Shown here piece by piece: positions 2,821-33,705 of a stretch of 64,000 nt of DNA. Positions within the stretch are counted from its first letter, which is position 1. The number at the start of each line of letters is the position of its first letter. The DNA is from Escherichia phage Eps7. The DNA lies in the sequence record NC_010583.1. One strand, written 5' to 3'. The translations under genes and the position numbers were made by a program. The notes beneath the pieces were generated by a model. That model was not told the origin of the DNA and did not search any database. It worked only from the letters and a program-made list of their open reading frames with translations.

Positions 2821-2827
2821 CAATTGT

Positions 2828-2906: not shown

Positions 2907-2934
2907 GAATATTCTTTGTTAACTCACTTTATAA

Positions 2935-3287: not shown

Positions 3288-3295
3288 ATAATAAG

Positions 3296-3576: not shown

Positions 3577-3654
3577 ATTATTATGTTTTGCAGTGCTCTA
3601 AATATAGACACTTCCCACGCGGTGGTTATCTATACCAGCGTCCTGCAAAAATTG

Positions 3655-3731
3655 GCGCGACCGATGGGATTCGAACCCACATTTTCTCCCGTGACAGGGG
3701 AGTACCATTACCAAGCCAGCCCCGATCGCAT
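3655..3731 (-). tRNA. tRNA-Asp (anticodon GUC)
   Basis: T-arm atggg/attcgaa/cccac, acceptor gcgaccg/cgatcgc, perfect anticodon arm ctccc-gtgacag-gggag. Confidence 0.65.
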
Positions 3732-3752
3732 AATTTATTTACTCAGTTTTGA

Positions 3753-3936
3753 GTTTTTCGATAGCTTCCTCAACCTCTTTTAGAGCTTCACGACGGGCAT
3801 TCTGTTGCTGCATATCTTGAATTAATGTCAGTTTTTGTTTTTAATTTCTTGATCCCAAACCTTAATATTATTAATCAGACTATCACGATCAGCTTCTAGT
3901 CGAGCAATTGCACGAGTTGTCATATCTATTTCCTCA
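3753..3936 (-). CDS. hypothetical small coiled-coil protein (about 60 aa, apparent frameshift)
   Basis: Two short adjacent ORFs (MTTRAIARLEADRD... and ...MQQQNARREALKEVEEAIEKLKTE) join across an A5CA5 tract; manual translation only. Confidence 0.25.
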
Positions 3937-4025
3937 GTTATTAATGAAAATGGTATCTGTGACTGAATTCAATATCAGTAATGATAGCTGGTTGGCTACC
4001 GGTTTACTTAACTCTACACAGAATA

Positions 4026-4108
4026 TGGCGGGCCGTGTAGGATTCGAACCTACGTTGTCTTTCGACATGGATTAACAGTCCACCGCCAAACCGCTTGGCT
4101 AACGACCC
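4026..4108 (-). tRNA. tRNA with 13-nt variable arm; anticodon reads GUU (Asn?)
   Basis: T-arm gtagg/attcgaa/cctac perfect, acceptor gggccgt/acgaccc, anticodon arm atgga-ttaacag-tccac, variable hairpin gtc-tttc-gac. Confidence 0.5.
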
Positions 4109-4115
4109 TAAAATT

Positions 4116-4191
4116 TGGACGACCGCATGAGATTCGAACTCACATAAGGAGGTTTTGCAGGCCTCCGCCTAAGCCATTCAGCCAACGGTCG
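4116..4191 (-). tRNA. tRNA-Cys (anticodon GCA; tentative)
   Basis: T-arm atgag/attcgaa/ctcac, acceptor cgaccgc/acggtcg, anticodon arm gaggt-tttgcag-gcctc. Confidence 0.55.
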
Positions 4192-4369
4192 AGTTATCTT
4201 GCTTTTCGAGATTAGTAAACTCTAGATCTTTAGAATGTCCTATAGATCTAGCATAATAGCCATCTCCAGCATCATAGCCTGACTTACCACACTCACACAT
4301 CTTAAACTCTCTATAACGAGTGAAAATATGTTCAGAACCACAACACTTAAATTTAACTAACATTTTCAT
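4178..4369 (-). CDS. Cys-rich small protein (63 aa), putative zinc ribbon
   Basis: KFKCCGSEH...CECGKSG cysteine pattern; 3' end overlaps tRNA by about 14 nt. Confidence 0.4.
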   Translation of the reverse strand: MKMLVKFKCCGSEHIFTRYREFKMCECGKSGYDAGDGYYARSIGHSKDLEFTNLEKQDNSTVG

Positions 4370-4608
4370 TTAACACGCTCCGGTAAATCTTCGAGTTTAT
4401 ATTGAGTAGCCACATTAGCAGCATCTAGTAACAAACCCATATGTTTAAGAATCCTAGTGATAGCTTCGCCTTCTGCTTCTTCTACAAAAGTGCGTAGTTG
4501 AATGAAGTCAATACCACCATCCATACCAGAGAAAATGTTAAGTAAGCGAAGCATTACCAGCTTACGTTCTTTTAATTCTTGTTCTGCCATGTTGCTTCTC
4601 CAGTTCAA
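4366..4608 (-). CDS. hypothetical protein (80 aa)
   Basis: ORF directly downstream of promoter cassette 4625-4672; ATGA overlap with next gene. Confidence 0.45.
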   Translation of the reverse strand: MNWRSNMAEQELKERKLVMLRLLNIFSGMDGGIDFIQLRTFVEEAEGEAITRILKHMGLLLDAANVATQYKLEDLPERVK

Positions 4609-4624
4609 TTTATGTAATAATTAT

Positions 4625-4672
4625 ACAGAACTTTAAGGATTTAAGCAACTACATTTTTCAGAAATTTGATGC
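4625..4672 (-). promoter_or_regulatory. T5-type early promoter cassette
   Basis: RC: -35 GTTGCT, -10 TATAAT, conserved leader. Confidence 0.5.
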
Positions 4673-4928
4673 CTTTCTTTTTCTTCTTATACTTCCACGT
4701 TAATGGATTCTGTCGATTATGAACGCTTGAGATCTTTGTCTCGTCAAATTTCTTCAATACCATGTAATCACACGCCAACTGCTCTAGTGGAATGGTTTCT
4801 CCATCAAAAGCATAAACATAAGGCTGTTGACTAGCACGATAATGATAGACTTTGTTAACTCTACGTTTCAGCGACTTATCCGCGCAGTAAATAAAGAAGT
4901 TTTCAGGATGCATCAGCATCTCCTTCAA
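4641..4928 (-). CDS. hypothetical protein (95 aa)
   Basis: ORF; lysine-rich C-terminus overlaps the downstream promoter cassette. Confidence 0.4.
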   Translation of the reverse strand: MKEMLMHPENFFIYCADKSLKRRVNKVYHYRASQQPYVYAFDGETIPLEQLACDYMVLKKFDETKISSVHNRQNPLTWKYKKKKKGIKFLKNVVA

Positions 4929-5011
4929 ATTGGTGCAACCTGTACGTAACGATCGTACCTCTTCTCCTTTTCAGGGAGACGCTAATCCATCTCAGCTAAA
5001 GTCGCAAATAT

Positions 5012-5088
5012 TGGCAAACCTACTAGGACTCGAACCTAGACCGTACGGTTTTGGAGACCGACATGCTGTCCAGTAACACTCTAGGAAT
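5012..5088 (-). tRNA. tRNA-Trp (anticodon CCA; tentative)
   Basis: T-arm ctagg/actcgaa/cctag perfect, anticodon arm acggt-tttggag-accga; acceptor pairing imperfect. Confidence 0.5.
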
Positions 5089-5096
5089 GCAGAAAT

Positions 5097-5172
5097 TGGC
5101 GTCCTGTGCGGGGATCGAACCCGCAAATCCTACCTTGAAAGGGTAGTGACTTTACCAGTTTGTCTAACAGGA
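5097..5172 (-). tRNA. tRNA-Glu (anticodon UUC)
   Basis: T-arm gcggg/gatcgaa/cccgc, acceptor gtcctgt/acaggac perfect, anticodon arm ctacc-ttgaaag-ggtag perfect. Confidence 0.65.
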
Positions 5173-5180
5173 CTTAAATT

Positions 5181-5271
5181 TGGTGTTGGATGATGGAGTC
5201 GAACCACCCGAGACCCTTCCGAGTCGGCAGATTTACAGTCTGCTTCGCTACCTCTACGATACTAATCCAAC
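5181..5271 (-). tRNA. tRNA-Tyr (anticodon GUA, type II)
   Basis: T-arm gatgg/agtcgaa/ccacc, acceptor gttggat/atccaac perfect, anticodon arm gcaga-tttacag-tctgc perfect, long variable arm. Confidence 0.65.
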
Positions 5272-5416
5272 ATATTTGAATGAAAAATAAGTCGGTTAAA
5301 CTCAAGGTGGAATATTTCAGGAAATCCTGACTTTACCCCTAAAAGCAACTCGCTTAGTTACTTCTCATTCAGATATGTTTTCCAAATTAGATAACTATTA
5401 TATCAAGTTTTGAAGG

Positions 5417-5452
5417 ACTGAGCAAGTCAAATTTTAAAGAACTTGCTCAGTG
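5417..5452 (-). terminator. intrinsic terminator hairpin (11-bp stem)
   Basis: actgagcaagt ... acttgctcagt inverted repeat immediately downstream of the 5462-5737 gene. Confidence 0.45.
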
Positions 5453-5461
5453 CTATATCAG

Positions 5462-5737
5462 TTACTCGAAGCTAGGAGTGACACTCAGTTTGAATGGAAG
5501 CTCGAACACTTCTTCATAATCATCATTGAGCGTAATTACACGACCTTCTAGCTTAGTCATGGTGATTTCGATATCAGCCTCTGCATCAGGAGCCATACCA
5601 GCTTCCACACATTTAGCTTTGACTTCCGGCAGAAGTTCTACATCGTAGAAATAAAGCCATTCAATCTCACCTTCCCAGCCACCCCAGGATTTACAAACAG
5701 CACTTTCAACACCAGTTGCAGTAACACGTTTTGACAT
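5462..5737 (-). CDS. hypothetical protein (91 aa)
   Basis: ORF downstream of promoter cassette 5775-5815. Confidence 0.5.
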   Translation of the reverse strand: MSKRVTATGVESAVCKSWGGWEGEIEWLYFYDVELLPEVKAKCVEAGMAPDAEADIEITMTKLEGRVITLNDDYEEVFELPFKLSVTPSFE

Positions 5738-5774
5738 TCGTTAACTCCTTCATCAATTTATATAACTATTATAG

Positions 5775-5815
5775 CAGAAATCTTAAGTAAAAAGCAAGTA
5801 CATTTTTAAAATTTC
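5775..5815 (-). promoter_or_regulatory. T5-type early promoter cassette
   Basis: RC: -35 CTTGCT, -10 TATAAT, conserved leader. Confidence 0.5.
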
Positions 5816-5827
5816 TGCTTGGAGGAG

Positions 5828-6034
5828 TTAAACTCCTGATTCTTCAGCCAGATCAAGCCCAACCAACGTGATTGCCATAATAGCCGCGCCATGTTCTTTC
5901 TCTCCTAGCTCTTTGGCTTGAGTGAGAATATTTAGGAACTGCTTTTGAAAATCTGCAACTTCTTCTGTCATGCCTGCTTCAGCAATAATTCCTTTCAGCA
6001 TAAAGCGTTGTGCCGTAATTTCAGGATTAGCCAT
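5828..6034 (-). CDS. hypothetical protein (68 aa)
   Basis: ORF. Confidence 0.45.
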   Translation of the reverse strand: MANPEITAQRFMLKGIIAEAGMTEEVADFQKQFLNILTQAKELGEKEHGAAIMAITLVGLDLAEESGV

Positions 6035-6185
6035 TTATTATCTCCAGTTATTTAGAATGTAAGCCAAACTTAGGATCATAGCGATCGTAAGTCGTACCAT
6101 TAGTTGAAGCCTTGATGCTATGAAAACGACAGTACATAAATTTACGTAGTGCTTTCTTAATAGCTTTCATTTTATTTCCTTAATT

Positions 6186-6262
6186 TGGTAGGGGTGGTGG
6201 GATTCGAACCCACAAAACCTGAATTTTAAGTCCAGTACCTATGCCAATTCGATTACACCCCC
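6186..6262 (-). tRNA. tRNA (anticodon reads UAA, Leu-like but type I; uncertain)
   Basis: T-arm gtggg/attcgaa/cccac perfect, acceptor aggggtg/caccccc, anticodon arm ctgaa-ttttaag-tccag. Confidence 0.5.
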
Positions 6263-6280
6263 ATGTAATCTTAGCGAATC

Positions 6281-6603
6281 TCTAAACCCTGGAAATATCG
6301 AGGGAATGGAGAGCCAACTTCAAAATTGATGCCCCAATTAAGTTCAACGAGTTCAGATTTATTAAGATCTAGGCCATTACCTTCAAAGATATAGCCGTAA
6401 ACCGCAGGGAACATAGCTGCTAGATCTTCCATATCGGAATGAGCATTGTGTTCTTCACGGAACTGCTCAACTCTTCAATAGAACTTTTCTAGGAGACTCA
6501 GGTACGATGAACGTTACCACATCAGTAGAATCATCGGTACGATACACCGTAGCTTGGAACAAGCCAACACCTAAAAGGTTTATTGCCGGAGTAGTAAAAA
6601 TAT
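6281..6603 (-). CDS. hypothetical protein (about 107 aa, apparent +1 frameshift near 6470)
   Basis: Two sub-threshold ORFs (MDIFTTPAINLLG... and ...EQFREEHNAHSDMEDLAAMFPAVYGYIFEGNGLDL...) in adjacent frames. Confidence 0.3.
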
Positions 6604-6608
6604 CCATC

Positions 6609-6794
6609 TTAGCCTCGCTCAATGTCTAGACAAATTGCATATTCAGGGTTGATACCAGTACCTTTACATGTAGGACATTCCCATTCTCTACAGAAAATAT
6701 CCCCAGGTTCTGCATCATCCTGCCTACCACTACCATGACAGTCCTTACACCGACATTCTTCTAATGCTTTCTTCATTTCATAGAATCTAGACAT
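6609..6794 (-). CDS. DnaJ-type zinc-finger mini-protein (61 aa)
   Basis: Two CxxCxGxG motifs (CKDCHGSG, CPTCKGTG) plus additional Cys pairs. Confidence 0.45.
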   Translation of the reverse strand: MSRFYEMKKALEECRCKDCHGSGRQDDAEPGDIFCREWECPTCKGTGINPEYAICLDIERG

Positions 6795-6811
6795 ATAGTC
6801 TCCTAGTTAAT

Positions 6812-6889
6812 TGGTGGCTCCCGGAGGATTCGAACCTACCTACCTTTCGCTTATGAGGCGACGGCTCATACCAAATGAGCTTGAGAACC
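6812..6889 (-). tRNA. tRNA with CAU anticodon (Met or Ile-lysidine; tentative)
   Basis: T-arm ggagg/attcgaa/cctac, D-arm gctc...gagc, anticodon arm ttcgc-ttatgag-gcgac. Confidence 0.55.
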
Positions 6890-6894
6890 AAATT

Positions 6895-6988
6895 TGGAGG
6901 AAGATGCCAGATTCGAACTGGCACACCGTGTCTCCACAGCTACTGGCTGTTTAGCAAACAGCTCCCTTACCTTTAGGGTTAATCTTCC
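6895..6988 (-). tRNA. tRNA-Ser (anticodon GCU, type II)
   Basis: T-arm gccag/attcgaa/ctggc perfect, acceptor ggaagat/atcttcc perfect, anticodon arm gctgt-ttagcaa-acagc perfect, long variable arm. Confidence 0.65.
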
Positions 6989-6999
6989 GAATTTATGAA

Positions 7000-7045
7000 T
7001 ATATTATACAGAAAATTTCGGCATTAAGCAAGTGAAATTTTACTG
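7000..7045 (-). promoter_or_regulatory. T5-type early promoter cassette driving tRNAs at 6812-6988
   Basis: RC: -35 CTTGCT, -10 TATAAT, conserved leader. Confidence 0.5.
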
Positions 7046-7336
7046 AACATTGCACTGATATACTTGTTTGATACGTGTCACTGACTTCTTAGTTGGGTTG
7101 ATAGAAGAACCCTGCCACCAACGTGATTCTGAGCTGAGAACAGCCCCAGGAACAGCTTGTTCTTTTGGCAGAACAATATCAAAACACTGTTCACCCATAT
7201 TATCTTTAATGTGCGACCAAATGTCTAGAGTAAATCGTTCTAGCTTATTACAAACTTGAACTTGACAAAGTTCCTGTTGTGGAGCAGCAAATACAGAAGT
7301 AGATACTAGAGTCAATGCAAGTACAATGCGTTTCAT
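7040..7336 (-). CDS. secreted/periplasmic protein with signal peptide (98 aa)
   Basis: MKRIVLALTLVSTSVFA signal peptide then Cys-containing mature part; the ORF-track MREESN prefix is read-through of the conserved leader. Confidence 0.5.
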   Translation of the reverse strand: MKRIVLALTLVSTSVFAAPQQELCQVQVCNKLERFTLDIWSHIKDNMGEQCFDIVLPKEQAVPGAVLSSESRWWQGSSINPTKKSVTRIKQVYQCNVQ

Positions 7337-7362
7337 ATTTGATTCCTCTCTCAAATTTATAA

Positions 7363-7400
7363 ATATATTATACAGAAATTTTCTATATAAGCAAGGTAAA
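7363..7400 (-). promoter_or_regulatory. T5-type early promoter cassette
   Basis: RC: -35 CTTGCT, 17-nt spacer, -10 TATAAT, leader ...TTTGAGAGAGGAATCAA then ATG. Confidence 0.55.
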
Positions 7401-7436
7401 AATTTATGTATATAGCCCTCTAAGCGAGGGCTATAA
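7398..7436 (-). terminator. intrinsic terminator
   Basis: Hairpin tatagccctc-taagc-gagggctata followed on the minus strand by a U-run. Confidence 0.5.
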
Positions 7437-7441
7437 CTACT

Positions 7442-8134
7442 TTATTTGTTAACGCGTACAAAGTATCCTTTATAGGCTCCCATAATAGAGTTACCTAAGA
7501 ATACTAGCCACATTGCTAGGATTGCATAAGATGCACCTGTAGATTGAGCAGTTACAAGCCAAATGTACACAGTACCAATGTTAATAGCAATCCAAATCAG
7601 CCATTGTTCAGCATATTGTTTGACCATAAGCCACATAGCAATCACACTACCTACCGCAGTAAATGCATCCAACATTGGGAATGGATCAGCCGTAGTAGCA
7701 AGGAAACTACCATAACCTAACGTGGCTACTGCTAAAATCCCTAGAGTCAGCAAAGCTTGAGCTTTTGTCAGAACTTTAGTTGGAACATCCGGCAGATTAC
7801 TTGGCTTATTTTTATGCCATAAGTACATTCCATAAAACTGCATAGGAACGTAGTATAGCAGGTTTAGTGCAGCGTTACCATAAAGATCTGCGTTTAAAGC
7901 TGTAATACCATATGTAAGAACACCCACTAAGCCCCAAATATAGTTGGAAACACGTCCTTTTGCAACCAGAATAACACAAACCACATTGGTTATTGCAGTA
8001 GCCCAATCTAGAGCTGTACCATTATAGTTTGCTAAACTAATAAAGGCGACTGCTATAAACAGCCACAGATATTCCAGAGGTTTCCAGTTTTTAAAGTCAT
8101 TTACGAGATAGTTAGTCATATTAAAACTCTCCAA
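7442..8134 (-). CDS. pnuC: nicotinamide riboside transporter PnuC-like membrane protein
   Basis: 230-aa polytopic membrane protein; GMYLWHK and VKQYAEQWLIWIAINI match PnuC signatures GWYAW and RKYVENWLLWVIINV. Confidence 0.65.
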   Translation of the reverse strand: MESFNMTNYLVNDFKNWKPLEYLWLFIAVAFISLANYNGTALDWATAITNVVCVILVAKGRVSNYIWGLVGVLTYGITALNADLYGNAALNLLYYVPMQFYGMYLWHKNKPSNLPDVPTKVLTKAQALLTLGILAVATLGYGSFLATTADPFPMLDAFTAVGSVIAMWLMVKQYAEQWLIWIAINIGTVYIWLVTAQSTGASYAILAMWLVFLGNSIMGAYKGYFVRVNK

Positions 8135-9176
8135 AGATAAAGTGATGAATCAGCCAGTCTACTGCGTTTACTGCTTCGTCCATACGAACTTTGTAGTCCG
8201 GAGAGTCGATGTAAACAGTACGCCCTTCAGGGAACTGATTTGGAAATTCTTTCTTCATCTGCTCGAACAGTTCAGAAGTAATTGAACGATCGGAGTTAAT
8301 ACGTAAACCATCATCTACCCACTTGACAGTAGGCGCTAGAACAATTACTAAATCGTAATGTTCTTCTTTTGCAATTGCTGTAACCACAGGGTTCTTACTA
8401 TGTTCATAAAGTCTGTGGTAGAACTCAGTAATAAAAGCATTTGTATCCACAAACATGATCTTATTTGCAGTACGTTTTGCTTCAAACTCTAGCTCTTTGT
8501 GTCTGAACGCAATTTTACTATAGTCTTCGCTGGTAAGCAGATTTTCGTTACCAACTAGATCAACTTCACAATACGTTCGGCCATATTCTTTTACCCACGA
8601 AGTGTTGTATAGCTTCGCAAGGTATTTTGTTAAAGTAGTCTTTCCTGAGCTTTCAGTCCCAATGATTACAACCTTACGCACGTAATCTTTACGAACTACG
8701 CTAGGAAGAAACTCCCAATACTTCATAAGATCATTACGAATCATTGTAGCTGAGATTGGAACACGAGTCCGATCAGAATCTACAATATAATGACCAAACT
8801 TCGGCAGATATTTCTTATATTCTGCATCATAGTCTAGTTCGCTAGAGAAAATGGTGATCTCAGGCAAATGTCCGTAATTTTCATTAAGGATTCTAGCATA
8901 TTCCGGCCAACCATTCGGATATTCAGGAATATCATCTTCAATAATGTACTCTACCGAAATGTGCTCAATATCCGCGTAAGTTTGTTCTAACCAACGAAGT
9001 CGATTCTTTAACTGTAATACTTCCTGATCACGTGTGTTCTGCTTATCCAGCCAACGATTATCATGACTAACTACAACAATAACTCGTTCACACATAGTTG
9101 CTGCTGTGTTTATTAGGTTAATATGACCACGCGTTAATGGCGCGAACTTACCAATTACTAGACCAGTCTTAATCAT
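8121..9176 (-). CDS. nadR: NadR-like bifunctional NMN adenylyltransferase / ribosylnicotinamide kinase
   Basis: N-terminal nucleotidyltransferase motif GKFAPLTRGH (HxGH), C-terminal P-loop GTESSGKTT; true start MIKTGL (track MREESN prefix is leader). Confidence 0.65.
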   Translation of the reverse strand: MIKTGLVIGKFAPLTRGHINLINTAATMCERVIVVVSHDNRWLDKQNTRDQEVLQLKNRLRWLEQTYADIEHISVEYIIEDDIPEYPNGWPEYARILNENYGHLPEITIFSSELDYDAEYKKYLPKFGHYIVDSDRTRVPISATMIRNDLMKYWEFLPSVVRKDYVRKVVIIGTESSGKTTLTKYLAKLYNTSWVKEYGRTYCEVDLVGNENLLTSEDYSKIAFRHKELEFEAKRTANKIMFVDTNAFITEFYHRLYEHSKNPVVTAIAKEEHYDLVIVLAPTVKWVDDGLRINSDRSITSELFEQMKKEFPNQFPEGRTVYIDSPDYKVRMDEAVNAVDWLIHHFIFGEF

Positions 9177-9202
9177 ATTTGATTCCTCTCTCAAATTTAT
9201 AA

Positions 9203-9250
9203 ATATATTATACAGAGAATTTAGCGTTCAAGCAATCGAATTTTTAAACT
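9203..9250 (-). promoter_or_regulatory. T5-type early promoter cassette (drives nadR-pnuC)
   Basis: RC: -35 ATTGCT, -10 TATAAT, conserved leader with GAGAGAGGAATCAA RBS. Confidence 0.55.
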
Positions 9251-9384
9251 TTTTAGTGGAAAAATCTCAAGGCATTTAGTGGTAGCACGTTGTTGCTACA
9301 ATAATAGTATATGTATTACTAAAGTAAATAAAGAATTAAATACTAAAGACCTTAGTTGAATAACTTATGGGCTTTTCTTTTGCC

Positions 9385-9428
9385 TTAAATACAGAAAAGC
9401 CCGCGCTCTCGGAGGAAACGCGGGCTTG
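9385..9428 (-). terminator. intrinsic terminator (possibly bidirectional)
   Basis: GC-rich hairpin aagcccgcg...cgcgggctt with flanking T/A runs. Confidence 0.5.
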
Positions 9429-9546
9429 GTTCGAAGATTACGTGTAACTATTACTTGTTACGCATATCCATGATCATTTGACCATCGTAGCCAGTACCAA
9501 CAACAGTCTGCGGTACACCACCTTGTATTTTTCAGCACGAAGCATT

Positions 9547-10395
9547 TCAAACTTCCAGCTGCTTCCAACGAATCATTTCAGGAGTAATGGTACGTTGCAG
9601 CGCGGCGTTAGCTTCAGCTTCTTTCTTAGCTGCGTACAGTTTAGCATCTGCGTCACGTTCGTTAGCTACTGCCATGTTTTCACGAGCAGAACGATCAGCT
9701 TCAGCTTGCTTAACTTTCTGCTGTGCTTCTTGTTCAACACGAGCCAATTCAGCTTTAGCGGCGTTAACTTGTTCTTCACGAACTTTTGTGTTTTGTACCT
9801 GTTCCATGATTACAGGTGGCAGAGTAATATCCTGAAGGAATACTTGCTTAACCGTGTAACCATAAGGACGCGCGTACTCTTCTACTTCTTGCTGAATAGC
9901 AGTTTGCAGTTGAGCCTGAATCTTAGCGTCGAACAGATCTTGTGCTTTTGGTACAGACTTACCAAACTCACGAATCGTAGATAGCATCTTCTCTTCAACG
10001 TACTTGTTCAGAGCTTGATCCTGAGTACCTGCGTTAACACGGTTCATAGGAGCTTTAGCACCATCAAACTGCAACATAACGGTAATGTCAACAGTGGACT
10101 TAAACTTATCCTGGCTAGGAACCTGAAGTTTATCCAGTTTCATGGAAATATCTTTCGTACTAAAAGTATCAAAAGAAGCAAATGGGTTAACAATATGGAA
10201 GCCTGGCAATACAGGATTAGGGCTAACTTTACCCAGGAAGGTTTGGGTCTTAACAGTACCATCCTGAACAACTGTGTAGGAATTGAGAGCCAGAATAAGA
10301 GCGCCAAGACCAACTACAGCACCAACACCCCAACGTTTGATAGTGCGAATTACTTTTTGCTCAGAAGTCAGTTCTTTAGTGTTTTTAGTAAACAT
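9547..10395 (-). CDS. SPFH/band-7 (stomatin/prohibitin/HflC-like) domain protein; C-terminus probably extends to about 9451
   Basis: N-terminal TM segment, SPFH-like core, Ala/Glu/Gln-rich coiled-coil tail; two in-frame stops within 30 nt flanking an open alternative frame. Confidence 0.6.
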   Translation of the reverse strand: MFTKNTKELTSEQKVIRTIKRWGVGAVVGLGALILALNSYTVVQDGTVKTQTFLGKVSPNPVLPGFHIVNPFASFDTFSTKDISMKLDKLQVPSQDKFKSTVDITVMLQFDGAKAPMNRVNAGTQDQALNKYVEEKMLSTIREFGKSVPKAQDLFDAKIQAQLQTAIQQEVEEYARPYGYTVKQVFLQDITLPPVIMEQVQNTKVREEQVNAAKAELARVEQEAQQKVKQAEADRSARENMAVANERDADAKLYAAKKEAEANAALQRTITPEMIRWKQLEV

Positions 10396-10406
10396 ATATT
10401 TCCTTA

Positions 10407-10607
10407 TTATTTAGAAGAGTTAGCTACTACAGTTACTTTAGTTGCAGAAATAAACAGGCTAGCATCCACAGCAAATTCAGGAGCTTTGATATCTCCATTA
10501 TGAAATATGACTATACCGGAGACTACTTCAAATGCTAGTGCTGTAACATCGGTGGTATTTACTTGTGAATGTTCACCTACTACTTTTACTATATATCGTG
10601 TTTTCAC
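10407..10607 (-). CDS. NfeD-like short OB-fold protein (66 aa), partner of SPFH protein
   Basis: Beta-rich 66-aa protein (YIVKVVGEHSQV...) immediately upstream of and co-oriented with the SPFH gene. Confidence 0.4.
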   Translation of the reverse strand: MKTRYIVKVVGEHSQVNTTDVTALAFEVVSGIVIFHNGDIKAPEFAVDASLFISATKVTVVANSSK

Positions 10608-10633
10608 TTTATTTTCCTAGCAGTTAATAAAAT

Positions 10634-10709
10634 TGGCCGAGGTGACAGGATTCGAACCTGCATAAAGGAATTTAGAAGACTCCTGCCTATCCCTTAGACT
10701 ACACCCCGT
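10634..10709 (-). tRNA. tRNA-Arg (anticodon UCU; tentative)
   Basis: T-arm acagg/attcgaa/cctgc, acceptor cgaggtg/caccccg, anticodon arm ggaat-ttagaag-actcc. Confidence 0.6.
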
Positions 10710-27078: not shown

Positions 27079-27108
27079 AGCCAGATCGCTAGTCGATCTG
27101 GCTTTTAT
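27079..27108 (+). terminator. intrinsic terminator
   Basis: Hairpin agccagatcg...cgatctggct followed by TTTTATTTTATTT. Confidence 0.6.
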
Positions 27109-27462: not shown

Positions 27463-27829
27463 ATGAAGAACGTAAGACATCTTAAATATCGCTTAATTTA
27501 CAACGGACGTATGGAAACAGAAGATCTAGCTCAGCTAGCGATCAATTCAGATGAAGTTACGGTTCGTGCTTTATCTATTGAGAAGCTGCGTGCTTCTTAC
27601 GAAAATCGTATTATGGAACTGGAGGAGAAACTGTATGGACTTCTTGAATCAGAATCTAAAAAATAATCTAGAAAACATGCTTATGGAGCAGTGGAACTCT
27701 GGGTATAATGCTGGGGTGGCTACTTGTATTGCGGGGTTGGATATGCTTATTAAGCAAGAAAAGGTACGTCCAGAAGAAGCAATTCTACTCCAAAATATCA
27801 TCGAAGGATTCAAGCAAGGAATCGTATAA
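27463..27829 (+). CDS. hypothetical protein (about 121 aa; apparent frameshift at A6 tract 27658-27663)
   Basis: ORFs 27463-27666 and 27551-27829 join in-frame if the A6 run is read as A5. Confidence 0.4.
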
Positions 27830-28643
27830 TGCGTAGACTAATCGTTGTTAGTGGTGCAGGTTTGAGTGTAGATAGTGGTGTTCGTGCTTTCCGTACTGAT
27901 ACTGCTAGTGGTAAAGCGTTGTGGGATGATTATGACCTAGAAGAGGTATGTAATATTCATGCCTTTCGTGGTAATTTTACCATAAAACTCATATGTTTTA
28001 CAACAAACGTCGTGAAGAGTTACAAACTGTTGAACCTAACCTAGCTCATTTGCGTATTGGTGAATGGTATAAACGGTATCCAAATCAAGTGGTAAACCTT
28101 ACTACCAATGTTGATGATCTAATCGAACGTGCTGGAGTGCCGAGAGAAGATATACTCCATATTCATGGATATCTGAAAGAAATTATTGTAGAGCATGCGT
28201 TCGACCAGACACGTGATGTTATTGATATTGGGTATAGTTCTATTGATCCAGATGACTTTGATTGGGTTAAACCTAACGTTATCTTCTTTGGTGAGGTTGC
28301 TCCTGCCTATAAAACAATGTATGAGGTTTTTGATGGTATCACCAGTCATGATATGATCATCATTGTTGGGTGCTCTAACCAAGTAATTAACTTCTACTGG
28401 GAGCTATTTCCTGTTCTGAATCTTACTGCTGCAAAACTTATGGTAGTTAACTATTACGATAGTGCAGTAGCTATGGAACCAGGCTATCAGGGCATGACTC
28501 GTAGTGAAATGTATCAGTTAGAAGAACGTGGTATTCCTTACTGGAGTAAAGGTGCTGTGGATGCCTTTAGTGATCCCGATTTTATTGCTCGTGTGGAAGC
28601 TCATCTAGAAGGTAAACCCTATGTTCAACAAAAGCATGTGTGA
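27829..28643 (+). CDS. Sir2 (sirtuin)-like NAD-dependent protein (frameshifted at A4 tract 27984-27987)
   Basis: N-terminal GAGLSVDSGVRAFR (compare sirtuin GAGIS.ESGI..FR), central NVDDLIERAG...ILHIHG, later IIIVGCSN; two ORFs in adjacent frames. Confidence 0.55.
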
Positions 28644-28803: not shown

Positions 28804-28969
28804 GGGTATCTGGAAAGGTCTAGTATGGTTTGTCAACCTAATCGGTATGATTACCATTTATTCTCTGTTCCTATCTGTTATGTGGGGTAAAGGTGAATTG
28901 AAGGTTCCAGTTCCTTTTACTGATGAAGTTAAAGTCTGGACGTGGGATGCTACTGGTGGAAATAAGTAA
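28784..28969 (+). CDS. small membrane protein (61 aa)
   Basis: MVKKIFKGIWKGLVWFVNLIGMITIYSLFLSVMW hydrophobic helix; AAGGAGGGAG RBS. Confidence 0.45.
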   Translation: MVKKIFKGIWKGLVWFVNLIGMITIYSLFLSVMWGKGELKVPVPFTDEVKVWTWDATGGNK

Positions 28970-29462
28970 TACTCCTATAATTTTCCTGGATATTGATGGG
29001 GTGCTCAATTCGAGCATCTCTCACCATCATGCTCCAGATAGTGAAAAGCTATTCTTTGGTAGTGATTGGGTTTATAAGCCATTACTCCAGGCTTTTCAGA
29101 ACTTCCTTAAACCTTCTCCAATAATGATTGTTGGGGTATCTTCATGGTTTTCTGTACGAAACGAGATGGAGAACGTCCAGAGTATGACCGGGCTCGGTTT
29201 GATCGATCGTTTTCTTGGTACAACAGATTTTACTGGTGGCGGTTTATCTCGTGGTAATTCTGTCTTACGTTTCGTAGAAAAACATAAGCTCAAGCATTGG
29301 TGCGTCCTAGATGATGCTGGTGCTATGATGTATCAATTTCCTACTGTTATTGTAAATGGCAGGACTGGAATAAACCTTCAAGATTTAAATGCTATCAGCT
29401 ATATGCTGGAGTTTAGTCCAGATCTTGAAATGTGTAAGGCTCTTCAGAAACTCAAGGTGTAA
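28947..29462 (+). CDS. HAD-superfamily phosphatase-like protein
   Basis: HAD motif I IIFLDIDGVLNS; start uncertain. Confidence 0.5.
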   Translation: MLLVEISNTPIIFLDIDGVLNSSISHHHAPDSEKLFFGSDWVYKPLLQAFQNFLKPSPIMIVGVSSWFSVRNEMENVQSMTGLGLIDRFLGTTDFTGGGLSRGNSVLRFVEKHKLKHWCVLDDAGAMMYQFPTVIVNGRTGINLQDLNAISYMLEFSPDLEMCKALQKLKV

Positions 29463-29464
29463 AT

Positions 29465-29893
29465 ATGTTCGATAATCTTTTCATGAAAGAGGTAAACCCT
29501 ATGCTCCTCAACTTCTGGCGATCTCTCCCTGATGGTATGTATAATGAAACCATCAATCTGCTCAAGATTTGGTGTGAGAATAACGATATCTTCTTATCCT
29601 TTAAAGGCCCACTAGAGGAAGCTCCGTGTATTGGAGTTAGCGTGGATTTAGGGGAGGGAGTAGAAGAGATTGTAGACTGGAAAGAACTAGATGAAATGGG
29701 TCTGGTTTTTGCCTTGAACCATAAGCTGTTTATGCCTGCAAATCACCGTCTTATTGTAAACTATCGCACTGGTGAAGCTCCTGCTTTCCAGGTAAATGAA
29801 CGGGAGGGCTGGTCATATTCGCCCGAAGAAGTAAATGAGGGGATTCAGAAACTTCGTCGTTTCGGGTATATGATCCCAGGTTTAACTGCTTAA
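29465..29893 (+). CDS. hypothetical protein, paralog A (142 aa)
   Basis: Shares LVFALNHKLF.P...YMIPGL with the next gene (LIVALNFSIFHP...YVPGL). Confidence 0.55.
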   Translation: MFDNLFMKEVNPMLLNFWRSLPDGMYNETINLLKIWCENNDIFLSFKGPLEEAPCIGVSVDLGEGVEEIVDWKELDEMGLVFALNHKLFMPANHRLIVNYRTGEAPAFQVNEREGWSYSPEEVNEGIQKLRRFGYMIPGLTA

Positions 29894-29902
29894 GGAGGCA
29901 GA

Positions 29903-30298
29903 ATGGAACAAGTATTTTGGCGTCAGATAGATCCTAGTTTGGTAGAGCGTGCTGAGGGGCTCCTTGCACGTTGGTTGGGGGTTGACAAGGTTAGTGTAAC
30001 ATTTCCGTTTACTTCTGTAACAGACCCTAGTGTAGGTGTCTTTGTGGACGAAGATGAAGATGATGGTTGGGAAGCTGACTGGAATGAATTGTCCAGTATG
30101 GGCTTGATTGTTGCCCTCAACTTCTCTATATTCCACCCACGTGGTTTAGCTATTACACGTGATCCCGAAACCGGTGAATCCCCTTATCTTTTGCAAGTAG
30201 AAGATGATATTTGGGAGTACACCGAAGATATTCTCGAAGAAGCTAAAGGTCAATTAAATCGCATTGGGATCTATGTTCCAGGCCTAAATGATGATTGA
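29903..30298 (+). CDS. hypothetical protein, paralog B (131 aa)
   Basis: Tandem paralog of 29465-29893. Confidence 0.55.
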   Translation: MEQVFWRQIDPSLVERAEGLLARWLGVDKVSVTFPFTSVTDPSVGVFVDEDEDDGWEADWNELSSMGLIVALNFSIFHPRGLAITRDPETGESPYLLQVEDDIWEYTEDILEEAKGQLNRIGIYVPGLNDD

Positions 30299-30321
30299 TT
30301 TTCATTAGTCCAATCCTGATT

Positions 30322-30345
30322 ACCGAGTCATTTTGGCTCGGTTTT
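30322..30345 (+). terminator. intrinsic terminator
   Basis: Hairpin accgag...ctcggt followed by TTTTCTCT. Confidence 0.5.
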
Positions 30346-30390
30346 CTCTGTGCTCAAAGACACTGATAGCACCTTACGGAAAAATTTTAC

Positions 30391-30419
30391 TTGCAGGATG
30401 GTCAAAATCTTGATATAAT
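30391..30419 (+). promoter_or_regulatory. T5-type promoter (TTGCAG, 17 nt, TATAAT) with about 490-nt untranslated leader
   Basis: -35 TTGCAG, 17-nt spacer, -10 TATAAT; conserved leader start ATTTATATTGAATTGAGAGAC but no ORF until about 30916. Confidence 0.5.
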
Positions 30420-30915
30420 ATTTATATTGAATTGAGAGACATTAGTAAAAATTGATTTTGCTAATTTTTCTTGTTTACAATCCGCAATACGGAACAGTTA
30501 GGCTGCCCCATTAAGGGTTGTTTTAACTATTACTAGTGTTTATACTGCATTAGTTAATTATCAATTAAGTGATCTGCGTACCCTGAATTCGGAAAGGTAA
30601 ATCCAAACCGTGCATATTTAGCTCGTTATATAGGCAGAGCTTTATATGGGGGTGCGAACGAAAAGAGCAGCGAATGGTGACACGTCCAGTAGCCACCTAC
30701 CAATAGGATAGTGAGGGCAATCAGAATCGGCTTAGCGGCCAATGACCTAGGTTCTGATCTGGATAAGAGTTAAGAGAGCGCAGCACTGAGGTATGATAAC
30801 TTATTCATACTGCTTGATGATGATTAATGTTTGTGTAAATGGTAGTAATAGTTGTTCTATTCTTTTGAATAGTCCTAAAGAAAGATATTCGAATAACCAA
30901 CATAGGAGTATTGTT

Positions 30916-33705
30916 GTGTTCTCAATCCTACAAGGTCACGCAGGATTTTCCAGAGATAAAGCTACTGGCATCTGGAAAGAGATCAAAGTGGAAGATTACA
31001 CCTTTGCAAAGCGATTCTCTAAAGAGCATCCAGAAGGTAAACCAGCTTCCATGCCCTTCAAATTTGATGTACTTGAAGAACTTGACCCGCAAAACCTTGC
31101 TGAAATGTTACCTATCATGCGTCGTCTTACCAAAGACCCGCATATTGTAGCTATTCGTGGTAAATGTTTAGCCCCAAAAGATAATGTGCGTCGTACCAGG
31201 GGAAACTTTAACGTATCCAATCCTAGTCATATTATTGCTATGGACGTGGATGGTATTGTAGATACTGGTGGCTATGACAAGTTTAATCTTGTTGGCATGG
31301 CACGTCATATTATTAAGATGTTGAATAGTATTAGTGAGGATATGTTTCCTCTTGATGCAGGGTTTATTGCCCATGCATCGTCTTCGGCTGGATTAAAACC
31401 AGGTATCCGAATGCACTTAATGCTAGAATCTAATGTCAAGGTAACGCAGGGACAGTTAAAGTTCTTATTTACATCTATCAATGATAGTAGTAAGCAAAAG
31501 TACGGCTTTGATATTGCTGACTTAGCTTATTATTCTTCTGTTCAGCTTCACTATTTCGCAGATCCCTTATTTGATGATGGTATAGTCGATCCGTTTAAAG
31601 CGGAGAATAAACCACGTCTTGTGTATGTTAAGGGTTCGAAGGTAAATCTACCTAATAACCTAGTTGACTTTGAAACAACTAGAGGTGAGTTTAAAGAAGA
31701 GTTCTACTCCTTACTTGACCAAATTAAAGGCAAGAAGGCTGCATCTGATAAAGTGGAAGAAACCATCAGCGAACTAGAAGAAGCTGAGGATGGAGTGTAC
31801 CTGCGTATTATTCCAAAACTTTATCACAGAGCGTTAGAAGATGGTGTTGACTTTACGTGGTTAGAACGTGAAATTAAACCAGCTTTATCTGAGTATATTG
31901 CGACTAAAGATAATAGTCGTAATATTCAAGATTACTTTAATAACGGTCGTAAGCAGGCTCTCAAAGCCTTTGTAAATAACTCCAAACGTGAGATTCCACC
32001 AAACTTAAAAGGTGTACCATTAAAACGTCTAGACACAGATTCTCCACCAGAAGTTCCATACCTGAAAATTAACATTGTACCACCAAAAGGACATTTAACA
32101 TTTGTTAAGGCAAGTCTTGGTACGGGTAAAACTACCGCAGTAACTAAGTGGCTAGATGCAGGTGTTCTTCCAGGAAACTTTATTGCAATCACAAATACTA
32201 GGGCACTTGTATCTTCTAACGCGAAGAAATTCGGTGCTGGCCAGTATGATAAGTCAGTTGATATGCTGAACTTCAAACGTGGTGCCATTGATCGTATGTC
32301 TTCAACTATTCACTCTATCCATAAGTTCAAGAGCTTTGTGGGTCAGATTGATACGATCTTTATTGATGAATGTGACGCAGTAATGAATGATCTGTTATTC
32401 GCTCCGGTTGTTAAAAACCGTCGTGAATGTATTCAGGTTCTTCGTGATATCCTTATTACTGCTAAAACTGTTATCTTATCCGATGGTGATATCAGTGCAG
32501 AAACGATTGAAGCCTATGGTTCTTTGATTGATTTTGATAAACCAGTCGCATTTTATAATCACCACCGTAAAATGCTGGCGAAAGCTCATGCTTATGAATT
32601 CCCTGATGAATCCAGTATTTGGGTTGCACTTCAAACATCTTTAGAGATGGGGGAGAAATCAATCCTAGTATCTGACTGTGGCCCGGATGAACTGAATGAG
32701 AAGGGAATGGCATTACGTCGTAATACTGGTGCGTTAGTTAAAGAAATTCACTCAAACTCTACGTCTGATGTAGATATCCGACGTATTCTGGATTATACAA
32801 CTAATGAGCTAATTGATCAACAGATTGATTGTTTATTATGTAGTCCATCTGTAACGAGTGGTGTTGACTTTAACTATTTTGATAACGTATTCGTAATCAC
32901 TAGAACCTCAAACCAAGCGCCAAACATGCGTTTTCAAGCAATCAGGCGCGACCGTGGTGCTCAGAACATTTATTATTTTATTGATAAATCTACGAGTGGA
33001 TTTTCTGCGGGTTCCGAGCAATATAATATTGACGAAGGTTGGATTGAGTTAGCCCAACAACTGTACGCACGTCGTCGTGAGCTGGAATCTAGAAACTATA
33101 CCAGTACTTTGCGGTATTATCTTCTCGATCAAGGTGCAACTATTGATATTTTCAGTGAAAGCTGGGGAACTATCGAAGGTGCAGGCAAAGAGTATACAGA
33201 AGAGCGAATCAAAGCTATTTTGCACTCAACTCCTGAATATTGCGCACCACGTCATGCAGACGCATATGAAGCTAAATTGCTTCTGGTTCGCTATTATCAT
33301 CTGGATTCTATCAAAGATGTAACAGTGGAACATGTTGAACAGTATATCAAGGATAAACCGAATGATCGAGCTGCATTTTTCCACAAGATGCACGACATGT
33401 TCTGGGAAGATATTAAAAAGTGTTCAAACGTAACAATCAAACCGTTTATCGAAGCTCTTAAGAATAAGAAGAAGGATTTCTTCCTTAAGACAGGTCAGAG
33501 CGCTAACCCAAAATATGCTCGTATGTATCTTGGCATGATGGGTATCGGTAAAGATCTGGATACGGAAAAGATTGTGGACTGGTACAGAACTTACTGTAAG
33601 ATCGAATGTATGCCGATTCCAGTTAAGTTTATGACAGACGAAGAACGTCAGATGCACGAGGAAGCTCTTGCTGAATTGGGAGCTAGAAATGACAGTGAAG
33701 AATAA
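30916..33705 (+). CDS. large P-loop NTPase/helicase-like replication protein (putative origin-binding protein)
   Basis: Walker A GTGKTT, DExD-like IFIDECD; likely start GTG 30916 with AGGAG RBS 7 nt upstream (ORF track starts at 30793). Confidence 0.55.
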   Translation: MFSILQGHAGFSRDKATGIWKEIKVEDYTFAKRFSKEHPEGKPASMPFKFDVLEELDPQNLAEMLPIMRRLTKDPHIVAIRGKCLAPKDNVRRTRGNFNVSNPSHIIAMDVDGIVDTGGYDKFNLVGMARHIIKMLNSISEDMFPLDAGFIAHASSSAGLKPGIRMHLMLESNVKVTQGQLKFLFTSINDSSKQKYGFDIADLAYYSSVQLHYFADPLFDDGIVDPFKAENKPRLVYVKGSKVNLPNNLVDFETTRGEFKEEFYSLLDQIKGKKAASDKVEETISELEEAEDGVYLRIIPKLYHRALEDGVDFTWLEREIKPALSEYIATKDNSRNIQDYFNNGRKQALKAFVNNSKREIPPNLKGVPLKRLDTDSPPEVPYLKINIVPPKGHLTFVKASLGTGKTTAVTKWLDAGVLPGNFIAITNTRALVSSNAKKFGAGQYDKSVDMLNFKRGAIDRMSSTIHSIHKFKSFVGQIDTIFIDECDAVMNDLLFAPVVKNRRECIQVLRDILITAKTVILSDGDISAETIEAYGSLIDFDKPVAFYNHHRKMLAKAHAYEFPDESSIWVALQTSLEMGEKSILVSDCGPDELNEKGMALRRNTGALVKEIHSNSTSDVDIRRILDYTTNELIDQQIDCLLCSPSVTSGVDFNYFDNVFVITRTSNQAPNMRFQAIRRDRGAQNIYYFIDKSTSGFSAGSEQYNIDEGWIELAQQLYARRRELESRNYTSTLRYYLLDQGATIDIFSESWGTIEGAGKEYTEERIKAILHSTPEYCAPRHADAYEAKLLLVRYYHLDSIKDVTVEHVEQYIKDKPNDRAAFFHKMHDMFWEDIKKCSNVTIKPFIEALKNKKKDFFLKTGQSANPKYARMYLGMMGIGKDLDTEKIVDWYRTYCKIECMPIPVKFMTDEERQMHEEALAELGARNDSEE

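What the first reader, a model, noticed from the sequence alone, without database searches (positions are those of the whole stretch)
29465..30298. Tandem paralogous gene pair of unknown function
Adjacent genes of 142 and 131 aa share recognisable blocks (W.DG/W.EL...MGL[VI][FV]ALN..[LI]F.P...TGE.P....V...W.Y..E.....L.R.G..[IV]PGL), indicating a local duplication followed by divergence, a pattern often seen in host-takeover or anti-defence loci.
Basis: seen in the sequence. Interest (0 to 1): 0.35.

Follow-up and report, generated by a model that had tools for sequence, protein, structure and literature searches.

The report
Conserved T5-type DUF7415 gene pair
Two neighbouring small acidic genes in this T5-like phage are real, anciently duplicated copies of a catalogued phage family of unknown function (Pfam DUF7415; T5.106/T5.107); they show no evidence of being enzymes, and only the downstream copy keeps the family's signature motif and scores as fitness-relevant in T5.

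Summary
ORFs 29465-29893 (142 aa) and 29903-30298 (131 aa) are paralogs: BLASTP E=1e-20, 31% identity over 124 aa, z=27.7 against 2000 shuffles.

The window is a T5-like phage (Epseptimavirus). The pair is orthologous to T5.106/T5.107 and belongs to Pfam DUF7415 and phrog_2502. The duplication is old: synonymous sites are saturated, both lineages occur across T5-like genera, and both are under purifying selection.

New here:
- The downstream copy keeps the family motif (N..HP.GLA..RD..TG.S). The upstream copy has lost it. A single-copy relative (Serratia phage Slocum) keeps it.
- The ~55-aa core is a mobile module. It stands alone in T4-like and P2-like phages and is fused to dNTP pyrophosphohydrolase, thymidylate kinase, a 3'-5' exoribonuclease, ASCH, HTH and Lar-like domains.
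- These fusions plausibly explain the 'exonuclease' labels in databases; the 'tail tube' label is unsupported.
- Published CRISPRi-ART data call T5.107 (marginally) one of 17 fitness genes of T5; T5.106 is not.

The most likely role is a non-catalytic binding or adaptor pair in the early replication/nucleotide programme. An anti-defence role is not excluded. The family is known; its function is not.

The parts
29465..29893 (+). Upstream paralog ('P1-type', 142 aa, ortholog of T5.106). Residues 1-12 are predicted disordered. Residues 13-69 form the N-terminal half. Residues 70-118 (29672-29818) form a degenerate core domain, VDWKEL..MGLVFALNHKLFMPANHR..TGEAP..WSY. Residues 119-142 form the C-terminal helix and the IPGLTA tail.
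   Evidence: ORF. Pfam DUF7415 at 125.9 bits and phrog_2502. 72-75% identity to Tequintavirus orthologs. AF2 pLDDT 87.5, pTM 0.82. Net charge -10 and dN/dS 0.08 against T5. Motif positions H->M90, G->N93, L->H94 and S->A105 are lost.
29903..30298 (+). Downstream paralog ('P2-type', 131 aa, ortholog of T5.107). Residues 1-57 form the N-terminal half. Residues 58-106 (30074-30220) form the canonical core domain, ADWNELSSMGLIVALNFSIFHPRGLAITRDPETGESP..WEY. Residues 107-131 form the C-terminal helix and the VPGLNDD tail.
   Evidence: ORF. Pfam DUF7415 at 98.2 bits and phrog_2502. AF2 pLDDT 92.1, pTM 0.86. Net charge -20 and dN/dS 0.24 against T5. It keeps N73, H78, P79, G81, L82, G91, S93 and Y106, which are invariant or nearly invariant in 52 single-domain relatives. 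The T5 ortholog is called 'Fit' in CRISPRi-ART.
29893..29898 (+). Shine-Dalgarno AGGAGG for the downstream gene. It lies in the 9-nt spacer after the TAA stop of the upstream gene. The two genes are in the same reading frame.
   Evidence: Read directly from the sequence. The shared frame is also seen in T5 but not in Klebsiella T5-like phages, where the genes overlap by 4 nt. Read-through is therefore not a conserved feature.
30322..30352 (+). Intrinsic terminator closing the operon: a 9-bp stem, ACCGAGTCA...TGGCTCGGT, followed by TTTCTCTGTG.
   Evidence: Terminator scan. T5 and Slocum annotate a terminator at the equivalent place.
28923..29462 (+). Context: the gene immediately upstream, a HAD-superfamily phosphatase-like protein (ortholog of T5.105). 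It is absent from Klebsiella T5-likes and from Slocum.
   Evidence: Pfam HAD_SAK_2 E=2.6e-19. Synteny.
27829..28643 (+). Context: the Sir2-family gene of the same early operon (T5.102 homolog), here split into two overlapping ORFs.
   Evidence: Pfam SIR2 and phrog_2162. Alignment to the Sw2 gene.
27079..27103 (+). Context: terminator after nrdD, marking the upstream boundary of the transcription unit that ends with the DUF7415 pair.
   Evidence: Terminator scan. Sw2 and T5 annotations.

Best explanation
SHOWN. The two genes are an ancient tandem duplication of a DUF7415 protein, orthologous to T5.106 and T5.107. They are kept as a pair at the 3' end of an early operon (small ORFs, Sir2, HAD, DUF7415 x2, terminator), immediately upstream of the replication-origin-binding gene, throughout T5-like phages. 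Each protein is a compact alpha/beta domain of about 130 aa with no solved structural relative. Its C-terminal half is the roughly 55-aa core of the family, with the signature DWNExS..GLI..IN.EILHP.GLA..R[DN]..TG.S.G..V..DG.WEY. The downstream copy keeps that signature. The upstream copy has lost the His, Gly-Leu and Ser positions, and it occurs in nature with its core deleted.

INFERRED. The proteins are non-catalytic binding or adaptor proteins. They probably work as a hetero-oligomer, or as a sub-functionalised pair in which the downstream copy carries the ancestral binding site. They probably act in the early DNA-replication and nucleotide-metabolism programme by binding a protein, nucleic acid or nucleotide ligand that is still unknown. 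In other phages the same module stands alone, or delivers or regulates nucleotide-handling enzymes to which it is fused.

CONFIDENCE BY PART. Paralogy, orthology and family: about 0.97. Motif asymmetry between the copies: about 0.85. 'Non-enzymatic binding module': about 0.6. 'Replication/nucleotide programme rather than anti-defence': about 0.4.
For: Paralogy.

Family and orthology.

Age of the duplication and selection: (pS 0.80 between the copies; dN/dS 0.08 and 0.24 against T5). An NJ tree gives two clades, each holding the E. coli/Salmonella and the Klebsiella versions.

Motif asymmetry: alignments. The single-copy relative in Serratia phage Slocum keeps the motif.

Dispensability of the upstream core: the 74-aa natural deletion form P0048 and the SE11 protein.

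Fitness: T5.107 is 'Fit' (value -2.90, p=0.0215), one of 17 Fit genes. These are mostly injection and replication genes, but also include the holin, the small terminase and several unknowns. T5.106 is 'Not Fit' (-3.28, p=0.17) (PMC11879866 supplementary files 1 and 16).

Link to nucleotide and replication functions: the core domain is fused to the dATP/dGTP pyrophosphohydrolase domain PF04447, to thymidylate kinase, to an Rv2179c-like 3'-5' exoribonuclease and to DUF3850/ASCH. It lies next to the gpA replication initiator in 41 of 80 IMG/VR loci. Ribonucleotide reductase, NUDIX, DNA methyltransferases and helicases occur among its neighbours elsewhere. In T5-likes it sits between nrdD and the origin-binding gene.

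Non-enzymatic: the core is only about 55 aa. No catalytic family matches in Pfam, NCBIfam or PADLOC. The upstream copy lacks the conserved polar residues yet is still under strong purifying selection.
Against: There is no direct evidence for any ligand or partner.

Hetero-oligomerisation could not be modelled with the tools available.

The T5.107 fitness call is marginal: it is barely above the 'Not Fit' background of about -3 to -4. The screen is also insensitive, since even the origin-binding gene T5.108 scores 'Not Fit'.

Fusion partners also include HTH_37, a Lar-type zinc ribbon and domains of unknown function. In some P2-like prophages the gene sits between the head-completion gene L and tail gene X, a moron-like position. 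Context is therefore heterogeneous, and the nucleotide/replication association was not tested statistically.

Conserved N, H, R/D and S residues could still form a small catalytic or ligand site.
Confidence: 0.45

Rival explanations
1. Anti-defence or host-takeover inhibitors. On this view they are small acidic early proteins that bind and block a host immune or housekeeping protein, possibly as DNA or protein mimics. The duplication would broaden or split target range.
Against: The pair is present, in the same order, in essentially all of the roughly 520 T5-like genomes searched. It is under purifying selection. This is unlike typical patchy, fast-turnover anti-defence cargo. T5.107 scored as a fitness gene in the laboratory host of the published screen, whose authors state that anti-defence genes irrelevant to the strain do not score. 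AcrIC4 similarity is at noise level, and is 3.2 for the other paralog.
Confidence: 0.3
2. A small-molecule (nucleotide or nucleotide-derived signal) binding sensor or 'sponge' domain. The conserved N..HP..R[DN]..G.S residues would form a ligand pocket. Fused enzymes would be regulated by that ligand, and stand-alone copies would sequester it.
For: Fusion partners are dominated by enzymes that act on nucleotides or RNA ends: PF04447, thymidylate kinase, Rv2179c-like exoribonuclease and ASCH. The HTH_37 fusion has the layout of a ligand-responsive regulator. The polar positions are nearly invariant in 52 diverse single-domain proteins. Neighbours include Sir2, HAD, NUDIX and ribonucleotide reductase.
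Against: There is no structural similarity to any known nucleotide-binding fold or sponge. The domain is very small. The upstream paralog lacks the putative pocket residues yet is conserved. No binding data exist.
Confidence: 0.15
3. The database labels are right: the proteins are an exonuclease and/or a tail tube (virion) protein.
For: Some public records name orthologs 'exonuclease', 'Phage exonuclease (ACLAME 70)' or 'tail tube protein'.
Against: Pfam finds only DUF7415 in both proteins. NCBIfam finds nothing. A real Rv2179c-like exonuclease domain occurs only in a 299-aa fusion protein whose C-terminus is a DUF7415 module. This plausibly explains how the 'exonuclease' label was transferred by partial similarity. 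The genes lie in an early operon far from the structural genes. They are 131-142 aa and very acidic. Fold searches give no tail-tube match.
Confidence: 0.02

Closest known systems
T5.106 / T5.107 of Escherichia phage T5 (YP_006934 / YP_006935); Pfam PF24187 DUF7415; PHROG 2502
   Same: The synteny is the same: Sir2, small ORFs, HAD, then the two genes, a terminator and the origin-binding gene. The lengths match (142 and 130-131 aa). Amino-acid identity is about 72-75% for the upstream copy and about 66-71% for the downstream copy between Tequintavirus-type and window proteins. Both pass the Pfam cutoff and match the same PHROG.
   Different: Nothing essential differs. The window's versions are the Epseptimavirus alleles, 98-100% identical to many Salmonella and E. 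coli phage proteins. The downstream copy is more acidic here (-20 against -10 in T5).
Single-domain DUF7415 proteins of T4-like and P2-like phages (e.g. RB43 ORF184c, 85 aa; phrog_3954)
   Same: They share the roughly 55-aa core with the N..HP.GLA..R[DN]..TG.S..WEY signature. They are 40-46% identical to residues 63-121 of the downstream copy.
   Different: They lack the N-terminal half. They consist of one core domain plus a C-terminal helix. They are often fused to other domains. They occur in different genomic contexts.
CPT_Slocum_143 of Serratia phage Slocum (single-copy state)
   Same: It has the same two-half architecture and the same position, after Sir2 and before the terminator and origin-binding gene. 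phrog_2502 matches at E=8e-30.
   Different: Only one gene is present. It scores equally against the upstream-type and downstream-type profiles (78.5 against 70.5 bits), and it keeps the canonical motif.
AcrIC4 (PDB 8dfo_M) and generic alpha+beta sandwiches (NUP54 ferredoxin-like domain, eL22, NusA N-terminal domain)

Membership tests
Pfam PF24187 (DUF7415) | Whole-protein score at or above the curated gathering score of 27 bits. | tested here: met
   The two proteins score 125.9 and 98.2 bits. The four halves scanned separately score 73.6, 56.6, 44.4 and 57.8 bits.
Pfam PF24187 (DUF7415) | Each protein consists of two tandem copies of the 53-aa domain (an internal duplication). | tested here: inconclusive
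   The Pfam model matches both halves. A profile built only from 133 single-domain relatives does not find the N-terminal halves (about 2 bits). hhalign of N-half against C-half or against the single-domain profile gives probabilities of 2-14%. The order helix then beta-hairpin is the same in both halves of the AF2 models.
T5.106/T5.107 ortholog pair (PHROG 2502) | Reciprocal similarity plus conserved position between the Sir2/HAD genes and the origin-binding gene. | tested here: met
   phrog_2502 E=1e-59 and 2e-58. Synteny holds in T5, Sw2 and Klebsiella phage phi1_146058. The NJ tree separates the two ortholog groups.
Canonical DUF7415 core (single-domain type, phrog_3954) | Nearly invariant residues G, L, I/L, N, H, P, G, L, G, S and Y of the signature. 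| tested here: met
   This is met for the downstream copy only: G67, L68, L72, N73, H78, P79, G81, L82, G91, S93 and Y106. It is not met for the upstream copy, which has M90, N93, H94 and A105 in place of H, G, L and S.
Rv2179c-like / DnaQ-type 3'-5' exonuclease (basis of the 'exonuclease' labels) | Presence of the exonuclease domain (PF16473 or PF00929). | tested here: not met
   There is no such hit in either protein at E<=1. The domain is present only in a 299-aa fusion relative.
Phage tail tube protein (a label in some records) | A tail-tube fold or family match, and location in the structural module. | tested here: not met
Anti-CRISPR AcrIC4-like | Significant structural or sequence similarity. 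| tested here: not met
DNA-mimic anti-restriction proteins (Ocr/ArdA type) | A strongly acidic surface that imitates the B-DNA phosphate pattern, and binding to restriction-modification enzymes. | tested here: inconclusive
Known anti-phage defence proteins (PADLOC-DB) | A match to any PADLOC model. | tested here: not met
   No family matched at E<=0.1 for either protein or for its operon neighbours.

The most novel reading that the evidence does not exclude
DUF7415 is a previously unrecognised fold that acts as a portable ligand- or target-recognition module for phage nucleotide-metabolism and replication enzymes. One version would be a nucleotide or immune-signal sensor or sponge; another would be a replisome-tethering adaptor. 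On this reading, the T5-type pair is an obligate heteromer of one 'active' subunit (downstream) and one degenerate subunit (upstream). That would explain why T5.107 is one of the few genes of unknown function that matter for T5 growth.
Probability: 0.12. Interest if true: 0.65.

Novelty: already known. Interest (0 to 1): 0.3.

Why it matters
On its own the finding is ordinary. It is a catalogued pair of genes of unknown function, present in hundreds of sequenced T5-like phages. It has some value as a lead for three reasons. First, the downstream gene's T5 ortholog is one of only a handful of function-unknown genes that scored as fitness-relevant in a genome-wide T5 knock-down screen. Second, the fold has no solved relative. 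Third, the core module is reused across T5-like, T4-like and P2-like phages, often fused to nucleotide-handling enzymes. The contrast between one canonical and one degenerate copy, with a single-copy relative that keeps the motif, gives a concrete and cheap experimental design. The work also argues against two misleading labels found in public records ('exonuclease' and 'tail tube protein').

Tried and rejected
1. Internal duplication within each protein. Pfam reports two stretches per protein, and every half passes the cutoff alone. Independent tests failed, however. Smith-Waterman of N-half against C-half was not above shuffles. hhalign gave probabilities of 2-14%. A profile of single-domain relatives scored about 2 bits on the N-halves. 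I leave this as unproven.

2. Heterodimer modelling. I tried submitting the two genes as one in-frame translation. 

4. My recollection that the N-terminal domain of the common 185-aa fusion is MazG-like. There was no support from PDB sequence search, NCBIfam, PHROGs (phrog_24212, unknown function) or BLASTP against a PF04447 protein. I dropped the idea.

5. The idea that phage P2 Orf91 (named in the T5.106 note) is a DUF7415 protein. P2 Orf91 is a DUF3850 protein. DUF3850 is, however, a fusion partner and neighbour of DUF7415.

6. Literature. There were no hits for 'DUF7415', 'T5.106', 'T5.107' or the RefSeq accessions in main texts. The HIDEN-SEQ preprint holds nothing on T5-like genes.

7. 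PADLOC and NCBIfam gave no matches.

8. Stop-codon read-through joining the two genes. This is rejected. The downstream gene has its own strong ribosome-binding site, and the shared frame is not conserved in Klebsiella phages.

9. The word-indexed protein search with a family profile found no distant relatives. The exhaustive HMM search was needed to reach them.

Full report
WHAT IS THERE

The window is a T5-like phage genome segment. Region 28900-30800 is 98.7% identical to Escherichia phage PSa2 and 98.4% identical to Salmonella phage Sw2, an Epseptimavirus of the family Demerecviridae.

The two ORFs named in the finding are exactly where stated: 29465..29893 (142 aa) and 29903..30298 (131 aa), both on the + strand. 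They are separated by a TAA stop and 9 nt that contain a consensus AGGAGG. An intrinsic terminator follows at 30322-30342.

The two genes close an early transcription unit. It begins after the nrdD terminator (27079-27103) and holds small ORFs, a Sir2-family gene and a HAD_SAK_2-type phosphatase-like gene (28923-29462). The next gene downstream, after about 500 nt of non-coding DNA, is the replication-origin-binding protein.

The same layout is annotated in T5, where the two genes are T5.106 and T5.107, and in Sw2.

CHECK OF THE OBSERVATION

- BLASTP between the two proteins gives E=1e-20, with 31% identity over 124 ungapped residues.
- The Smith-Waterman score is 27.7 standard deviations above 2000 shuffles, and none of the shuffles came near it.
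- Both proteins match Pfam DUF7415 far above its cutoff, and both match phrog_2502.

The paralogy is real.

AGE AND CONSERVATION

- Between the two copies, synonymous sites are saturated (pS 0.80), so the duplication is old.
- Each copy has its own ortholog group across Tequintavirus, Epseptimavirus, Yersinia phage phiR2-01 and Klebsiella T5-like phages, always in the same order.
- Against T5, dN/dS is 0.08 for the upstream copy and 0.24 for the downstream copy.
- tblastn finds two places per record in essentially all of the roughly 520 T5-like records (1260 places in 742 records).
- Serratia phage Slocum, also Demerecviridae, has only one such gene in the same position: Sir2, then the gene, then a terminator and the origin-binding gene.

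T5-type phages carry two copies, and at least one related lineage carries one.

STRUCTURE

AlphaFold2, run with the family alignment, gives confident models: pLDDT 92.1 and pTM 0.86 for the downstream protein, and 87.5 and 0.82 for the upstream protein. The upstream protein has a disordered 12-residue N-terminus. Both models have the same order of elements: beta, alpha, three beta strands, two alpha helices, two beta strands, alpha.

- Foldseek against viral predicted structures returns only DUF7415 proteins.
- Profile searches of PDB sequences return nothing relevant.

The fold therefore has no solved relative in the libraries available. The AlphaFold database could not be searched.

FAMILY ANATOMY

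An exhaustive HMM search of 1.84 billion representative proteins finds only 154 members at E<=1e-3. Most match only profile positions of about 55-110, which is the C-terminal half of the window proteins.

An alignment of 52 short members defines a core of about 55 aa: DWNExS..GLI..IN.EILHP.GLA..R[DN]..TG.S.G..V..DG.WEY. One Asn is invariant, and G, L, I, H, P, G, L, G, S and Y are nearly invariant.

- The downstream window protein keeps all of these residues (N73, H78, P79, G81, L82, G91, S93, Y106).
- The upstream protein has M90, N93, H94 and A105 in place of H, G, L and S.
- The same asymmetry holds for the Klebsiella pair and for distant upstream-type representatives.
- The single-copy Slocum protein and its nearest representatives keep the motif.
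- A natural 74-aa form of the upstream protein, found on phage-length contigs and in Salmonella phage SE11, has the whole core deleted.

Pfam also matches the N-terminal halves of both proteins above its cutoff. This would make each protein an internal tandem of the domain. My independent profile tests do not confirm that, so I treat it as plausible but unproven.

WHERE ELSE THE MODULE OCCURS

The core stands alone as proteins of 70-90 aa in T4-like phages, for example RB43 ORF184c, which lies near nudE and a GmrSD_N-domain gene. It also occurs in many P2-like prophages.

It is fused to the following domains:
- the dATP/dGTP pyrophosphohydrolase domain PF04447;
- thymidylate kinase;
- DUF3850/ASCH;
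- an Rv2179c-like 3'-5' exoribonuclease;
- HTH_37;
- a Lar-type zinc ribbon, which only just reaches its cutoff;
- weakly, a ClpX-type zinc finger;
- several domains of unknown function.

The junction sequence (..IGGC.W.DWNELS) recurs in front of the module in fusions that have unrelated N-termini. That pattern points to module shuffling.

In 80 IMG/VR loci the gene lies next to the gpA replication initiator in 41 cases. C5 and Dam-type methyltransferase genes and DUF2732 genes are also nearby. In others it sits between head-completion gene L and tail gene X. Among 18 loci selected as not P2-like (mostly longer contigs, though a few proved P2-like), the neighbours include ribonucleotide reductase subunits, NUDIX, methyltransferases and helicases.

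The exonuclease fusion plausibly explains why some records call the T5-type proteins 'exonuclease'. Neither that label nor 'tail tube protein' has any support.

EXPERIMENTAL DATA FROM THE LITERATURE

The CRISPRi-ART study knocked down T5 genes genome-wide (Nat Microbiol 2025, PMC11879866). Its supplementary note lists T5.107 among only 17 'Fit' genes of T5. The others include A1, A2, dmp, D3, D5, D11, D15 and pol, and T5.107 is described there as of entirely unknown function.

Its table gives these values:
- T5.107: fitness -2.90, p=0.0215, 'Fit';
- T5.106: fitness -3.28, p=0.17, 'Not Fit';
- the Sir2 gene, the HAD gene and even the origin-binding gene: 'Not Fit'.

The T5.107 call is marginal and the screen is insensitive. 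Still, the direction agrees with the sequence asymmetry: the copy that keeps the motif matters, and the degenerate copy is dispensable. No paper mentions DUF7415 by name.

INTERPRETATION

Shown:
- an ancient, conserved, tandem paralog pair of a catalogued phage family;
- early-operon location;
- the same novel-looking fold in both copies;
- motif retention in the downstream copy only.

Inferred: the proteins are non-catalytic binding or adaptor proteins. The reasons are that the core is tiny, no catalytic family matches, and the degenerate copy is still under selection. They probably form a heteromer or a sub-functionalised pair.

Weighing the fusion partners, the neighbours, the core conservation and the fitness call in a laboratory host, I favour a role in the early replication and nucleotide-metabolism programme (about 0.4). 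An anti-defence or host-takeover role comes next (about 0.3), followed by a nucleotide or signal sensor or sponge role (about 0.15). None of these is demonstrated.

NOVELTY AND SCORE

The gene pair and its family are already catalogued as T5.106/T5.107, PF24187 and phrog_2502. What is new here is descriptive:
- the architecture of the proteins;
- the motif asymmetry between the copies;
- the single-copy relative;
- the repertoire of fusions;
- the case against the database labels;
- the link to published fitness data.

Interest is modest (0.3). It is a reasonable experimental lead, but not a surprise.

Noticed in passing
window 27829-28643 (+): The Sir2-family gene is split into two overlapping ORFs, 27829-28044 (71 aa, carrying the GAGxS N-terminus) and 27993-28643 (216 aa). 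In Sw2 and T5 it is a single ORF of 272-280 aa. Only the first ~120 nt are nearly identical to Sw2; the rest is much more diverged, and there is a gap of about 79 nt. The flanking region 28900-30800 is 98% identical to Sw2. This looks like a mosaic, divergent and frame-broken allele, or possibly a sequencing error.
   Followed up: partly
window 28923-29462 (+): This gene (ortholog of T5.105) matches Pfam HAD_SAK_2, the HAD phosphatase domain of 'Swiss Army Knife' RNA-repair proteins. RefSeq records and phrog_18062 nevertheless label it 'Sir2 (NAD-dependent deacetylase)', which looks like a mis-annotation. The gene is absent from Klebsiella T5-like phages and from Serratia phage Slocum.
   Followed up: partly
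window 30299-30792: About 500 nt of non-coding DNA lie between the operon terminator and the origin-binding gene. The stretch contains a TTGCAG-17 nt-TATAAT element with a TG-extended -10 at 30391-30419, where T5 annotates a promoter. No Rfam family matches. Sw2 annotates a 33-aa ORF here. Its function is unknown; it could be a leader, a regulatory region or part of the origin.
   Followed up: partly
window 30793-33705 (+): The 970-aa ORF for the origin-binding protein probably starts too early. The PHROG match begins at residue 42, and the T5 protein is 928 aa.
   Followed up: no
window 548-10708 (-): There is a cluster of 19 tRNA genes on the minus strand (Rfam RF00005). This is typical of the T5-like tRNA region.
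   Followed up: no
P0048 (74 aa; contigs up to 106,880 nt) and Salmonella phage SE11 A0A5C0CHJ0: This is a natural in-frame deletion variant of the upstream paralog. It retains residues ~1-55 and the C-terminal ~19 residues but lacks the whole core domain.
   Followed up: partly
L006, L039, L079; P0111, P0123, P0167 (fusion proteins): A conserved junction peptide (..[RK]IGGC[DA]W[LI]DWN[EQ]LS) precedes the DUF7415 module in fusions that have unrelated N-terminal domains. It looks like a recombination 'linker' for module shuffling in P2-like and lambdoid prophages.
   Followed up: no
L003 4593-5126 (RB43 ORF182c) and L060 4578-5108: In T4-like phages, a 177-178-aa protein with a GmrSD_N (DUF262) domain lies two genes downstream of the single-domain DUF7415 gene. 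NudE lies two genes upstream.
   Followed up: no
public records (e.g. Escherichia phage JLBYU43, Salmonella phage GEC_vB_N5, T5_ev219, STG2): Orthologs of the two genes are labelled 'tail tube protein', 'exonuclease' or 'Phage exonuclease (ACLAME 70)'. Nothing in the sequences supports these names.
   Followed up: yes
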